Positions 27,885 through 37,197 of a stretch of DNA of 64,000 nucleotides are shown in pieces. Location of the stretch: positions 376,216,001 through 376,280,000 of the forward strand of contig OZ024743.1 in NCBI GenBank assembly GCA_964016885.1, read 5' to 3'. A model generated the notes under the pieces. It did no database searches. It saw only the letters and a list, made by a program, of their open reading frames with translations, and was not told the DNA's origin. This DNA comes from Eledone cirrhosa (Eukaryota). The position numbers and the translations under genes were made by a program. The first letter of the stretch is position 1. Every line of letters begins with the position of its first letter.

Positions 27885-28220
27885 AAAAAGAATGAAGAAT
27901 AACATGGTCGGCTGTACAATAGGGTTTATTTACAGTATTAACAATTGTTTCATTAGTCTGGTGTATCTAAAGTCGCTGATCGTTAGAAGTTACGTCATTC
28001 AACCTTAATTACAGTCCATACCCGACCAAATCGTCAGAATACTGATATGTTATTCTTCGTTCTTTTGCTCCAAGAACCGCCTGCTTAAGAACTTCCTTAA
28101 ACCGGACTCCTGACTAAGGAAACTTCTTGTTGAGTCAAACAACGCCGTACGTTAAAACTATCCTCGATACAGAGTACTCATAACCTCTAGCTGGATTACC
28201 TTAAACGATATCTTGTTATC
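27885..28220. mobile_element. Hammerhead-bearing non-coding element (Penelope pLTR-like), family shared with 30642-31140
   Basis: Left part homologous to 30650-30760 and right tail homologous to 30955-31140; inserted in (TA)n. Confidence 0.75.
27933..28044 (-). ncRNA. Type I hammerhead ribozyme with long stem II
   Basis: Minus strand: CAGTATT-CTGACGA-T-TTGGTCGGGT...ACCAGACTAA-T-GAAAC-AATT-GT-T-AATACTG; perfect 7-bp stem I; 79-nt stem II region. Confidence 0.8.
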
Positions 28221-28426
28221 ATATATATATATATATATATATATATATATGTGTGTGTGTGTTTGTGTGTGTGTATGTGTGTGTGTGTGTGTGTGTGTGT
28301 GTGTGTGTACACATACATACACACACACATATATATATACACATACATATATATGTATACCATACATATATATATATATATATATATATATATATATATA
28401 TATATATATATATATATATATATATA

Positions 28427-29618
28427 AGAGATATACTTTAACTTTAATTATATCTCATAAAATAATACAACTGGTTTTTCCACATTATACATATTGTTAG
28501 CACCCCAAACACTTAAATTGGGTTTATATTTTAATATAACCTAATGTTTGTTGAGTGAGATGGTTACCAGTCAGAGTTTAGCTTTAAACTATCTCTGTTA
28601 TTGTATTAAATATTTACTCTTGATTGGCCAGAGGTGTTTATTTCCAGGTACCTTATGAATTTGACTTTCCGTATTTATTACTGTTGTGAAATATTGTGGC
28701 TTTTTTTGGTTGTAACTTCTCTGTTTTTTAGCCTAGGAAAATATATATATATATGCTTACGTATATAATTACATGCATATATGTATTTATTTTCTTTTAT
28801 TAATTGAGTTCTTTACACGAGGAATTAATATTGGTTTTGGAATAACTAATTAACCCGCGTGTGTTTTATATTTTACTCTTAATAATTCGGCCGGAGAATT
28901 ATATTCCCATTTGCCCTTTATAGCATAACTTTCTGCATTTACTGCGGTTATGAGAAGCGGTTCTTATTCGGGTACAACTTCTGATTTAGCCTAAGAAAAT
29001 ATCTATATGCGTGTGTAATTTATACAAGCCTATATTTATTTTTTTATTTTCAATTGAGTTCTTAAACACGTTGGATTGATAATGTTTTCAAAAAAACTAA
29101 TTAACCCGCGTGTATATTATTTTTTTTCCTCATTTCGTGGATTGTGGGTTGTCTCCCCTTCCCGCTTCGTGTCGCTATGATACTTCCTCAGTCAAAAACT
29201 GCTGGAATTTCAAATTTGGCGGTCATTCGAGGTGAGAGAGAGCAACTTTACGGACATGATTTTTGACAGCGGTAAGAAATTGTTTTCTTATATCAATGTT
29301 TAATGGGCTTCCACTGATGATTTATAAGTGCCCACCTAAATATATTCTTACATGAATATATATTAGGCTTCTACATAAACTGGAAACATTCTCCCAAACT
29401 TGTAGAAAACTTATAATGAAACAATTGTTTGGAAAGAGAGATATACTTTAACTTTAATTATATCTCATAAAATAATACAACTGGTTTTTCCACATTATAC
29501 ATATTGTTAGCACCCCAAACACTTAAATTGGGTTTATATTTTAATATAACCTAATGTTTGTTGAGTGAGATGGTTACCAGTCAGAGTTTAGCTTTAAACT
29601 ATCTCTATTATTGTATTA
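28427..29618 (+). mobile_element. Non-coding retrozyme-like element with 182-bp terminal direct repeats
   Basis: 28427-28608 repeats at 29437-29618 (offset 1010, one mismatch noticed); hammerhead immediately upstream of the second repeat; (TA)n on both flanks; no ORF. Confidence 0.8.
29309..29434 (+). ncRNA. Type I hammerhead ribozyme with long stem II
   Basis: TTCCA-CTGATGA-T-TTATAAGT...ACTTATAA-T-GAAAC-AATT-GT-T-TGGAA; predicted cut after 29429; 97-nt stem II region. Confidence 0.82.
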
Positions 29619-29649
29619 TATATATATATATATATATATATATGCCCAT

Positions 29650-30057
29650 ATACGCTAGATCATTCATTTTCATGTTTTGGAACTGGATTGGTAAGTTTGC
29701 TCAAATGGTGGCAAATATACTTGATACTCGTGGATCATGAATATTCACAAACAGAACGATATTCTCCTCAACGCTTTGACTAAGAGTCCCTAAATATAGA
29801 TATATCCAATCCCCTTGTCCTTTAATTTCAACGTCTATTAAATTCGAGGGATATTTTTGTTGTTTAAGAAAACCACTAAGATCATCAAGACGAAATTGTC
29901 GTAGTTCTGGCTCAAACGTTATTGCACATATTCGTCTTAGCATAGTGCAGAATGCGTCGTTCAATGTATAAGAGGTGGTATGAATACAAGTTCAAAGATT
30001 TATGCGTATCAGTCTTTTTATAAAATGGGTCTATTGTAATGCTGGTATTAAAATTAT
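29650..30057 (-). pseudogene. Penelope-like element RT C-terminal/thumb remnant
   Basis: IDPFYKKTDTHKSLNLYSYH and LRRICAIT.EPELRQFRLDDLSGFLKQQKYPSNLI match the PLE pattern YxKxTxxxxYL..SxHP / RR..IC..L...YP; frameshifted. Confidence 0.75.
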
Positions 30058-30641
30058 ATTCTGTCCACCGGGGCCGTTGGGTGACCAGCGCGTGGGCCCC
30101 CATCTGCTTGTAATAGTGAGAGATGGGGAGAGCAAGAAAGACGGAAGCAGTGAGTGAAAGAGAGAGAACATCAACACTCATTTATTTATTTATAAAGGCA
30201 CAAATCCAGCAAAGTTGTGGGAAGGTCATGGTTGATTAAATCAACCCCAGCACTTGACCAGTACTTTATGTTATTGACCCTGGATGGATGAGAACATCTA
30301 CACCCCTTTGAATTTCTTGTTTAAATTTTGATAAATAAACCTTGTATTGTTAAAAAATAAAAGAAATTATATGATGTCCAAAATATTGCACTTCCTTTCC
30401 ATGGGGTTCTGTTCTAAATTATAATGGTTGGTTGGAAGGGTTTTAGAATATTATGAAATATTTGTAGTTCGCCTTTTTTGTTCCAAAACATAAAACAGTC
30501 GTCGAGAAGACGGTTTTAGTTCTGTAGAAGTCATTTCGATATGAAATCTATATGTACGTTCATTACTAATGTATTGAATACTTTATTTAACTATGGTTCT
30601 ATTCCGTTCTCCTTCGGAAATCCTTTATATATATATATATA

Positions 30642-31140
30642 GTAAAAGTTTGAAGAGTTACATGGTCGGCTGTACAAAAAGGGGCTTTATTTCAGGTATT
30701 AACAATTGTTTCATTGATCAGGTGAGTCTAGAAGCCGCTAATCGCTCGAAGTTGCGTCACTCGATCTCCAATACATTATTTACCTCTGATGAAATCCTCG
30801 GTGTTCTGAGGATTTGATCAGAGGTAAATAATGTATTGGAGATGTATTGGAGATCGAGTGACGTAACTTCGAGCAATTAGCGGCTTCTAGACTCACCTGA
30901 TCAATGAAACAATTGTTAATACCTGAAACAAAGCCCCTTATTGTACAGCCGACCATGTTATTCTTCATTCTTTCACTATTATTACTCCAAGTATAACCTA
31001 CATAGAAATTACCGCGAACTCGCTGCATAACTATGGAAACATCTTGTTGAGTCAAACAACGCCGTACGTTAAAACTATCCACAACGCAGAGTACTCACAA
31101 CCTCTAACTGGATTACCTTTAACGATAACTTGTTATCCCA
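30642..31140. mobile_element. Palindromic hammerhead-bearing element (inverted pLTR-like arm + direct arm + tail)
   Basis: Arms ~30645-30801 and 30805-30975 are reverse complements (12-bp duplication in the right arm); (TA)n flanks. Confidence 0.8.
30800..30923 (+). ncRNA. Type I hammerhead ribozyme with long stem II
   Basis: GGTGTT-CTGAGGA-T-TTGATCAG...CTGATCAA-T-GAAAC-AATT-GT-T-AATACC; 93-nt stem II region. Confidence 0.8.
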
Positions 31141-35527: not shown

Positions 35528-36097
35528 ACATGGTGGCTGCCAACTCGTTTTCGAGTACGGCCACTACTTTATATCCATGTAGGAGAACCCCTACCGATGG
35601 GCTGAACGAATGTGACTTTTTAGTCCGGCCAGCAACTTGAAAACTCTGGTACAAACACTTGTGACAATTATTGACACATAGTACTGGGCCCATGGTACCA
35701 TGTGACGACAAGTGCTGAGAGATCTCCAGATATAAAGCAATGCCTCGTGCCGTGAAGCTTTTATAGTGAGCAAAGGCACTGCACAAAGCCAGTCCCACTC
35801 TCTTAACCAAGATGATATTTACCAAAAAGAAGAACAAGTCAACATCATTGGATACCATCAGGGTTGCAGGTGTTAAATCAGAGTTTTACTTCTCCTAGAA
35901 TTCTGCCTTGACAAAGGCTAAGGGGTCATCTCTCCCGGTGATTTTGGATGGCCATTGACTCTTAAGAGCTTCTTTGCCCCTTGACGGGTTTTGTTTTTAG
36001 TCCTGCAGGATGTCCAAAGTCACCCTCCTCACCAAGAAACCTTGGTAGGGTTGCCAGTTTAGTCGCCAACGACCCGACCATGGGACAGGTTGTACTG
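35528..36097 (-). mobile_element. ~570-bp non-coding dispersed retro-repeat with RTE-5'UTR-like segment
   Basis: Closely similar copy at 44024-44594; contains CTAGGAGAAG(G/T)AAAACTCTGAT, recalled as an RTE 5'UTR motif; ends in (TATG/TA)n. Confidence 0.65.
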
Positions 36098-36330
36098 GGA
36101 TGCATATATATATACATATATATATACACACACATATATATACATATATATACATATATATACATATATACATACATATATATATATATATATTTTTTTT
36201 TTGTTGAGTACGTGTTGGTTGTTTACCGACACTTCATTATGCAGGCTGGAGCACTCGATGAAGTACGTAGGTTGGTTTGTTTACTCCGGAGTCAAACATG
36301 TTAAATTTGGCTTCGTTTATTATAAATTCT

Positions 36331-36383
36331 CTGCTATATATATTTCAGTGACAGCTATTATTGGCTGTGACCTCTTCAGACAG
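36331..36383 (-). ncRNA. Short type I hammerhead ribozyme motif
   Basis: Minus strand: CTGT-CTGAAGA-GGTCACAGC-caataata-GCTGTCACT-GAAA-TATATA-T-A-GCAG, followed by AATAAA. Confidence 0.72.
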
Positions 36384-36467
36384 TACGAATTAATGTAAAA
36401 AGAACAGGTAAACATCGTGTTGAAATGTGTTCCACTGTCAATTCATCGTCATGTCCAGCCCCTGGAT

Positions 36468-36672
36468 GTGTTGTTAGTCCTACGAGGAACTGGAATCATA
36501 TGAGCTAGGCTGTCCTGTCTCTGAAGAATTTCAATAGACTTTCGACTGGGGAGTGGTATGACAACTGACCAATGGGGTACGAACGTGTCTTCTGACGCTG
36601 AAATTCGTTTGTTCTAGAACATATGATTCCAGTTCCTCGTAGGACTAACAACAACTCGTAGGACTAACAACA
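36468..36672. repeat. Segment bounded by 34-bp perfect inverted repeats
   Basis: TGTTGTTAGTCCTACGAGGAACTGGAATCATATG / CATATGATTCCAGTTCCTCGTAGGACTAACAACA; last 19 bp duplicated in tandem. Confidence 0.8.
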
Positions 36673-36720
36673 AATATATATATATATATATATATATATA
36701 TATATATATATATATATATA

Positions 36721-37197
36721 TATAAAGAATTAAAAAGAACAGAAAGATGCAGTAAAATAGATTTATTCGGTTCTTACGTACGTTTCAATAGACATCAATT
36801 TGCCTAGATCTCGCTACATCTATAATATTATATATTTAGTAGAGCATTCGATATCCAATCACAATCGATCCCATATCATCAGAGATTATCTCTGATGATA
36901 TGGGATCGATTGTGCATTGGATATCGAATGCTCTACTAAATATATAATATTATAGATGTAGCGAGATCTAGGCAAATTGATGTCTATTGAAACGTACGTA
37001 AGAACCGAATAAATCTATTTTACTGCATCTTTCTGTTCTTTTTAATTCTTTATACACGCCCCGGAATATAGCTAAATTGGAATATACACCTTTTTTCTGC
37101 ATTTCGTTGAGCACCACTCTGTTGTAAGCTGACCTTCCACTACACGGTACATAACACTGTGTCCTGGAAAACATTAGTGCAATCGTGCATAACCAAT
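36721..37197. mobile_element. Near-perfect ~334-bp palindrome plus tail, hammerhead-bearing
   Basis: Arms 36721-36886 and 36888-37054, 1-nt spacer, one indel noticed; unique tail to ~37197; (TA)n on both sides. Confidence 0.9.
36889..37003 (+). ncRNA. Type I hammerhead motif with long stem II (mirrored on the minus strand)
   Basis: TCT-CTGATGA-T-ATGGGATCGATT...AATTGATGTCTAT-T-GAAAC-GTAC-GT-A-AGA; stem I only 3 bp because it is truncated at the palindrome centre. Confidence 0.65.

What the first reader, a model, noticed from the sequence alone, without database searches (positions are those of the whole stretch)
27933..37003. Atypical hammerhead class: 79-97 nt stem II, U/U closing pair, palindromic 8-nt stem III
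Seen in four motifs from three unrelated families (27933-28044 minus with 30800-30923; 29309-29434; 36889-37003). The pattern is CTGANGA-T-[8-12 bp stem + large insert]-T-GAA-AC-(AATT or GTAC)-GT-H. Stems covary between the relatives (stem I CAGTATT/AATACTG vs GGTGTT/AATACC; stem II TTGGTC/GACTAA vs TTGATCAG/CTGATCAA). Known: canonical hammerheads usually have G10.1-C11.1 and a short stem II, so standard models could miss these. Inference: a distinct, possibly dimer-cleaving or insert-regulated variant.
Basis: partly seen in the sequence, partly recalled or inferred. Interest (0 to 1): 0.72.

Follow-up and report, generated by a model that had tools for sequence, protein, structure and literature searches.

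The report
Long-armed hammerheads of Hydra-clade retrotransposons
These four motifs are hammerhead RNA motifs, predicted to cut themselves, at the ends of two Penelope-like jumping genes and of one non-coding repeat that likely hitch-hikes on them; their odd U-U pair and tiny palindromic stem are already published, and what stands out is one arm three to seven times the published length, whose fold is partly kept by paired mutations.

Summary
The four motifs are real and far above chance (2,781 exact genome hits against 2 in the control). Families A and C are ends of Hydra-clade Penelope-like elements (PLEs); B is a non-coding 0.7-1.0 kb tandem repeat with PLE-type ends. The 'distinct class' is mostly known: U10.1/U11.1 stands in 14 of 26 published Hydra rows, and a U-U, 2-bp-stem-III hammerhead from axolotl was shown to cleave best as a dimer. 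In this genome U/U, insert length (13-97 nt) and palindrome vary independently. Not found in the papers read: the 79-97 nt structured arm (published Hydra 12-26 nt), which Rfam misses. It shows compensatory changes, and B swaps one loop III palindrome for another. Copy ends differ: A and C copies stop at a predicted start site inside stem I (uncut templates), whereas B copies stop just after the cut site five times more often than elsewhere (16 of 82 against 47 of 1,230), which suggests cleavage in vivo but has confounders. An intron reading failed. The scan noted long-armed Hydra hammerheads before, here and in other genomes. Verdict: new variant of a known kind; cleavage untested.

The parts
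27879..28046 (-). Family A (subfamily A2) inverted arm of a Hydra PLE end; runs from the predicted transcription start to about +60 after the cut site
27933..28044 (-). Hammerhead motif 1: stem I 7 bp, core CTGACGA, 79-nt stem II domain, stem III palindrome, GUU site
28047..28220 (+). Family A2 direct arm, about +40 to +215, ending in (TA)n
28427..29616 (+). Family B, non-coding tandem repeat, 1.2 units of 1,010 nt between (TA)n tracts; 5' end 8 nt after the predicted cut site, 3' end at about +187
29309..29434 (+). Hammerhead motif 3 (family B): stem I 5 bp, 97-nt stem II domain with two inner hairpins, GUU site
30642..30799 (-). Family A (subfamily A1) inverted arm, -99 to +62; holds a mirror motif without the 5' strand of stem I
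30801..31138 (+). Family A1 direct arm, -106 to +218, ending in (TA)n
30800..30923 (+). Hammerhead motif 2: 93-nt insert (82 plus an 11-nt private duplication); outer stem I bases come from the junction
36725..36889 (-).
36885..37197 (+). Family C direct arm, -116 to +197, ending in (TA)n
36889..37003 (+). Hammerhead motif 4: stem I only 3 bp, 90-nt rod-like stem II domain, GUA site

Best explanation
The motifs are type I hammerheads in the terminal repeats of two Hydra-clade Penelope-like retrotransposons (A, C) and of a non-coding tandem repeat (B) that is likely moved by such elements; they are predicted to cut only in pairs or with protein help, and the long stem II arm is a folded add-on that likely serves the element's own protein rather than changing the chemistry. 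Steps: (shown) A and C motifs lie downstream of a Hydra-type ORF end and, in A, 274 nt upstream of the next ORF start; insertions sit in (TA)n with fixed 3' ends. (Inferred) A TATA box about 31 nt upstream starts the RNA inside the 5' strand of stem I; reverse transcription starts at fixed sites 54-218 nt past the cut site and runs off that start, so the A and C copies seen came from uncut RNA. (Predicted) A lone motif folds into an inactive rod; two motifs pair their palindromes to build stem III. (Inferred, weaker) In tandem B transcripts one site is often cut, and the cut sets the 5' end of the copy.
For: Hydra motifs RWK, DKT, YRDD in a copy where the A hammerhead runs into the ORF; CxCX5C, CxxC and CxH upstream of A and C motifs, as defined in PMC8557442 section 11. 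U/U and GUU/GUA are common in published Hydra hammerheads. Stem III hairpin +2.4 kcal/mol against a self-duplex of -6.4 or -9.8; hammerhead fold under 0.4% of the monomer ensemble in 6 of 6 folded. Loop III AATT becomes GATC in a B subfamily, 4 of 23 aligned rows. Inner arm of A: 88.7% of cells paired, 3 pairs with two-sided change (11, 4 and 15 rows of 58), slid controls 22-45%; B keeps two inner hairpins across subfamilies. C: 18 of 30 copies chosen by their 3' end start at -105 to -125, none at -5 to +22, TATA at -148. B: 16 of 82 passes stop at +1 to +26 against 47 of 1,230 elsewhere and 15 of 351 in TA-rich windows. Unprocessed RNA as main substrate and protein-assisted cleavage were shown for another PLE (PMC11167929).
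Against: No cleavage was measured. A large A subfamily spread with a U4C core (CCGATGA in 19 of 60 pattern-picked copies), so an intact core is not needed for A to move. The B pile-up window was chosen after seeing the data, 7 of the 16 stops lie at +11/+12 where the repeat resembles the (TA)n target, and a polymerase pause at the 3' foot of the rod would fall in the same place; in the set picked by an intact hammerhead 10 insertions ran through the upstream site and only the window's copy stopped there. Covariation counts are copies, not events: each two-sided pair is about one change between subfamilies, and the number of such pairs did not beat the shuffles (393 of 500). RNAalifold alone predicted only 6 stem II pairs for A. 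No partner PLE was found for B. Protein docking on the arm has no direct evidence.
Confidence: 0.68

Rival explanations
1. The core no longer cuts in these families; the arm and the hammerhead-like fold are kept only as a binding site or as promoter-proximal DNA elements.
For: U4C core in 19 of 60 A copies; no A or C direct arm starts at the cut site, 0 of 30 each; stem I of C is 3 bp; the arm lies at about +15 to +110 of the predicted transcript and A keeps a TGACGYAA word in it; hammerhead mutants did not impair insertion of another PLE in vitro.
Against: Core, cut site and stems are invariant or nearly so across B subfamilies that are 73-97% identical elsewhere; loop III changed from one palindrome to another; B copy ends pile up after the cut site.
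Confidence: 0.17
2. The arm is a switch: binding of a protein or other ligand to it turns a lone hammerhead on, making this a naturally regulated ribozyme subclass.
For: The monomer's lowest-energy fold pairs the core with the stem III strand; the arm is structured and conserved within families; stem II is where engineered switches are placed (recalled, no call); one PLE hammerhead needs the element's protein.
Against: The three arms share no sequence or shape (rod in A and C, two hairpins in B); arm length in this genome runs from 13 to 97 nt without a gap; a weak palindromic stem III already explains poor monomer activity.
Confidence: 0.11
3. The insert is a retained spliceosomal intron; splicing would leave a compact hammerhead.
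For: Subfamilies A1 and A2 have GT just inside stem II and TAG before its 3' strand, and A2 has a CTAAC word upstream of it; PLEs retain introns near their hammerheads (PMC4209133).
Against: At least 25 of 60 pattern-picked A copies have AC in place of that GT; only 5 short-insert copies against 895 long ones, none with the exact junction; the insert pairs covary as a helix; C has no conserved donor.
Confidence: 0.04

Closest known systems
Hydra-clade PLE hammerheads (Craig et al. 2021, PMC8557442; seen: passages, section 11, supplement parts 1-2 with File S2)
   Same: Type I, in the terminal repeat, U10.1/U11.1 in 14 of 26 rows, H17 = U in 10 and A in 12 of 26, near-palindromic stem III, (TA)n targets, inverted 5'-truncated arm
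   Different: Stem II domain 12-26 nt in the 26 Hydra rows against 79-97 nt here; stem III mostly 9-10 nt there, a perfect 8-nt palindrome here; tail 30-40 nt there, 143-156 nt here. The longest in File S2 is about 54 nt (PLE-X1_sMoe, marked as deviating)
Axolotl HHR_Amex2 and metazoan non-LTR retrozymes (Cervera and de la Pena 2020, PMC7229834; seen: passages and section 15)
   Same: 2-bp stem III with tetraloop, U-U at the base of stem II, weak as monomer (22% in 1 h) and better as dimer; non-coding tandem repeat of low GC, like family B
   Different: Units 170-400 nt against 719-1,010 nt; compact stem II; circles were shown there and are untested here; B occurs mostly as 0.2-2 units with one fixed 3' end
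Minimal and variant PLE hammerheads (Cervera and de la Pena 2014, PMC4209133; seen: parts 1-2 of 4)
   Same: Longer helix II, short helix I, palindromic helix III, dimer model, low activity
   Different: Helix II 6-8 bp with conserved G10.1-C11.1 and an extra base after A9; no large insert described
U10.1-U11.1 natural variant (Perreault et al. 2011, PMC3088659; seen: passages and section 8)
   Same: Stem II opening with a U-U mismatch, stated to support more cleavage than any other mispair
   Different: Short stems II; not tied to PLEs in the parts seen
Poseidon PAc of anole (Frangieh et al. 2024, PMC11167929; seen: parts 1-2 of 4)
   Same: Two internal start sites of reverse transcription past the hammerhead that define the tail; unprocessed RNA as main template
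   Different: Other PLE clade; ORF starts inside the hammerhead, here 274 nt after the cut in A

Membership tests
Type I hammerhead ribozyme | Core C3 U4 G5 A6 N7 G8 A9, G12 A13 A14, A15.1-U16.1, H17 | tested here: met
   All four window motifs; U4C in many other A copies
Type I hammerhead ribozyme | Three helices with stem I open | tested here: met
   Stem I 7, 6, 5, 3 bp; stem II 5-8 contiguous bp; stem III 2 bp
Type I hammerhead ribozyme | Site-specific self-cleavage | not testable with these tools
   Only the indirect copy-end pattern of B
Rfam hammerhead families | Match to the covariance models | tested here: not met
   No hammerhead row up to E 10 in three local scans covering the four motifs, none among the 150 of 213 rows listed for the window
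Hydra-clade PLE (families A, C) | RWK and DKT motifs in the N-terminal RT part | tested here: met
   Family A, locus L097. For C no copy reaching that part was found
Hydra-clade PLE (families A, C) | CxCX5C linker, CxxC and CxH near the C-terminus, no CCHH | tested here: met
   A; C:
Hydra-clade PLE (families A, C) | C-terminal GIY-YIG endonuclease | tested here: inconclusive
   Pfam PF01541 at E 0.006, below cut-off, in 1 of 5 proteins (C, L124); the VY...HYIG motif is read by eye in A and C
Hydra-clade PLE (families A, C) | Insertion in (TA)n, inverted 5'-truncated arm, tail at one end | tested here: met
Hydra-clade PLE (families A, C) | Placement in the Hydra clade on an RT tree | not tested
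   No tree built; assignment rests on motifs
Hydra-clade PLE (family B) | RT-endonuclease ORF | tested here: not met
   No tblastn match of three Hydra ORF pieces to three B units; B is not filed as a PLE
Metazoan non-LTR retrozyme (family B) | Non-coding tandem repeat with one type I hammerhead per unit, GC under 45% | tested here: met
Metazoan non-LTR retrozyme (family B) | Unit of about 170-400 nt | tested here: not met
   Units of 719, 730, 742, 998, 1,007 and 1,009 nt; B works like a retrozyme but is not filed as a typical one
Metazoan non-LTR retrozyme (family B) | Accumulates as circular RNA | not testable with these tools
   Repeats within one insertion share few private changes and no A-to-G excess, which neither shows nor excludes circles

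The most novel reading that the evidence does not exclude
Hydra PLEs in this lineage have repeatedly grown a 50-100 nt folded domain on hammerhead stem II that acts as a protein-controlled switch, and family B is a kilobase-size retrozyme whose genomic copies record in-vivo cutting by such a ribozyme, the first natural case of a ligand-gated hammerhead in a retroelement.
Probability: 0.13. Interest if true: 0.75.

Novelty: new variant of a known kind. Interest (0 to 1): 0.42.

Why it matters
Standard models and descriptors miss these motifs, so thousands of PLE hammerheads in one genome (at least 2,781 exact matches to one narrow pattern) go uncounted, and elements scored as lacking a hammerhead may simply have a long arm. 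What PLE hammerheads do in vivo is open; here the same architecture shows two footprints, uncut templates in the coding families and an excess of ends at the cut site in the non-coding one, which gives a ready pair of test substrates. The natural AATT/GATC swap is a built-in control for the dimer model.

Tried and rejected
Intron reading of the insert: rejected. Stem I covariation between the two window copies of A: a junction effect. First impression that A was Neptune-type: dropped after the Hydra definition. ORFs next to B or C copies in L141, L308, L309 and L324 belong to neighbouring insertions, not to those copies. Search for an autonomous partner of B in 50 loci: none contiguous. Editing marks shared between repeats of one B insertion as a sign of a circular template: 6 shared against 60 single private changes in B1, 11 against 75 in B2, no A-to-G excess. 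Expression and splicing: no RNA holder listed; the four contig sets laid showed no GT-AG skip among the 15 joints shown of 57, which is no evidence either way. The repeat finder was swamped by microsatellites. The family scan dropped the long motifs through a regex fault and was redone. Lunse et al. 2017 (PMC5785218), the most relevant survey of dimeric PLE hammerheads, is not held; I saw only its title and a review's summary, so long arms may be listed there. Literature searches for long stem II listed no paper that describes this arm; only listings were seen for most. Supplements of the bioRxiv preprint 10.64898/2026.07.22.740005 (seen: part 1 of 5 and passages) were not seen and may hold similar long units.
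Full report
Observation. The window lies in a 3.0-Gb animal genome, handle G000, in microsatellite-rich DNA. All four motifs are present as described, with inserts of 79, 97, 93 and 90 nt between A9 and G12, T on both sides, and an 8-nt palindrome as stem III. A strict scan gave 3 hits in the window and none in 100 block shuffles (the fourth has a 3-bp stem I). A single genome-wide pattern gave 2,781 hits against 2 for the reversed pattern. Rfam has no hammerhead hit on any of them.

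What carries them. Family A (27933 and 30800 copies, 81% identical over 131 nt) had 5,074 first-look candidates and 895 exact matches to a family pattern. Long copies carry upstream a reverse transcriptase and endonuclease ORF with the CxCX5C linker, CxxC and CxH, and in 2 loci the hammerhead region runs on into an ORF start at +274/+275, in one of them with intact RWK and DKT. These are the defining marks of the Hydra clade (PMC8557442 section 11). Family C is young (40 scored, best copies 97-99% identical) and has the same C-terminal motifs upstream; its protein is 42% identical to that of A over about 250 residues. Family B is a non-coding tandem repeat: 40 of 40 scored hits were identical over 156 nt, units are 719-1,010 nt across subfamilies, and no Hydra ORF remnant was found. 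All three insert in (TA)n with fixed 3' ends: +62 and +218 in A, +54 and +197 in C, about +187 in B, the two-site pattern explained by internal initiation of reverse transcription (PMC11167929).

Which features are new. File S2 of Craig 2021 has T after the core and T before GAA in 14 of 26 Hydra rows, and H17 is U or A in 22 of 26 (counted by eye). Perreault 2011 reports natural U10.1-U11.1. Axolotl HHR_Amex2 combines that mismatch with a 2-bp stem III and tetraloop and cleaves better as a dimer. Palindromic helix III and the dimer model are standard for PLE hammerheads. The published Hydra stem II domains are 12-26 nt. In 1.15 Mb of loci fetched here (enriched for A, B and C by design) 213 motifs fell into 33 clusters with inserts from 13 to 97 nt; U/U occurs with 14-nt inserts and G-C with 55-60 nt inserts; shuffles gave 0-3 hits, so single weak rows may be chance. 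The three features therefore do not define one class; the long arm is the part I did not find described in the searches named under Tried and rejected, with the caveat that Lunse 2017 could not be read.

The arm is folded. In 58 A copies a 15-pair inner helix is 88.7% paired, with two-sided changes in 3 pairs; slid controls give 22-45% for the whole structure; cells with two-sided change beat all 500 shuffles, but the number of such pairs did not (393 of 500), and each reflects about one change between subfamilies. RNAalifold alone kept only 6 stem II pairs. B keeps two inner hairpins across subfamilies, and 4 of 23 aligned rows change loop III from AATT to GATC, still a palindrome. Folding z-scores were -4.3 and -4.4 for motifs 1 and 3 but -0.02 and -1.0 for motifs 2 and 4. 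The arms of A, B and C share no sequence. An intron reading, prompted by GT...AG in A1 and A2, failed: 25 of 60 copies have AC for the GT and the 5 short-insert copies lack the exact junction.

How it likely works. Stem III is unstable as a hairpin (+2.4 kcal/mol) and stable as a two-molecule duplex (-6.4, -9.8); the hammerhead fold is under 0.4% of the monomer ensemble in 6 of 6 sequences, whose best fold pairs the core with the stem III strand or misfolds (nearest-neighbour energies ignore tertiary contacts). Copy ends, sampled by queries from the 3' part only, separate the families. In C, 18 of 30 direct arms start at -105 to -125, 2 run further up, 10 stop elsewhere and none at -5 to +22; 12 of 15 inverted arms also end at -110 to -121; a TATA box lies at -148. 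In A, 7 of 30 direct arms start at -100 to about -114 and none at the cut site, though 2 inverted arms start at +3 and +23; A2 and A3 have TATAAATA about 31 nt upstream and A2 a TCAGT initiator-like word overlapping stem I (the motif labels are recalled). I read this as run-off at a transcription start inside stem I on uncut RNA. In B, among 66 distinct insertions (70 loci, 4 duplicates of one insertion dropped), 16 of 82 passes over a cut site stop at +1 to +26, against 47 of 1,230 in other 26-nt windows (Fisher p 4e-7) and 15 of 351 in TA-rich ones (p 2e-5). This fits templates whose 5' end was made by cleavage. Against it: the window was set after the fact, 7 of the 16 stops lie at a TA-like spot, a pause at the foot of the rod would look alike, and in the 25 loci picked by an intact hammerhead 10 insertions ran through the upstream site. 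I put in-vivo cleavage of B at a little better than even. A subfamily of A with U4C (19 of 60) shows that A can spread with a weakened core. A docking role for the arm is a guess shared with earlier notes of this scan and has no direct support.

Earlier notes. After my own assignment the scan's notes showed the same long-armed Hydra hammerheads in this and at least two other genomes, run-off at a predicted capped start, and other retrozyme families with PLE ends. They are unchecked AI notes and are not counted as evidence; a look-up by the B sequence found nothing.

Verdict. Observation confirmed; interpretation partly supported; new variant of a known kind; interest 0.42.

Noticed in passing
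window 20689-20738 and 20965-21011 (+); 36335-36379 (-): Three more hammerhead-like motifs with 26-31 nt inserts and AT-only stem III; the first two are copies of one repeat
   Followed up: no
window 35142-35340 and 37850-38040: Two related fold-back elements between (TA)n tracts with a GTCGAAAC word in each arm; they may belong to the rearranged-hammerhead repeats of earlier notes, not tested
   Followed up: no
window 36772-36885 (-): Complete mirror copy of motif 4 on the minus strand, 89-nt insert
   Followed up: partly
L215-L274: A numerous subfamily of A has U4C in the catalytic core (CCGATGA in 19 of 60, plus CpG-decayed forms)
   Followed up: partly
window 30956-30997 region; L014, L097: A 13-codon hydrophobic upstream ORF starts 38-40 nt after the A cut site and recurs in several copies; the +62 insertion end falls inside it
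   Followed up: no
families A and C: The tail between the two 3' ends is 156 and 143 nt, against 30-40 nt in the papers read
   Followed up: partly
L124, L127, L135: In C, sequence upstream of the predicted start could add 4 bp to stem I after an 8-nt bulge, so read-through RNA would have a stronger stem I than RNA started at the internal promoter
   Followed up: no
family B loci L046, L047, L055, L157, L173, L332, L346: Seven copies are almost exactly one unit long, ending at unit position 161-191; could reflect one round on a circle or TA-like microhomology
   Followed up: partly
window 32375-33580: Direct duplication of about 600 nt of GA-rich sequence, each copy with a CTGATGA word on the minus strand near its start
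   Followed up: no
window 53659-55701 (+), 56792-60406 (-), 62837-63871 (-), 5952-8714 (-): Non-LTR retrotransposon ORFs with RT, endonuclease/exonuclease/phosphatase and zf-RVT domains
   Followed up: no
L106, L118, L148, L151, L217, L268: Other hammerhead families with 49-60 nt inserts and palindromic stem III in flanking DNA
   Followed up: no
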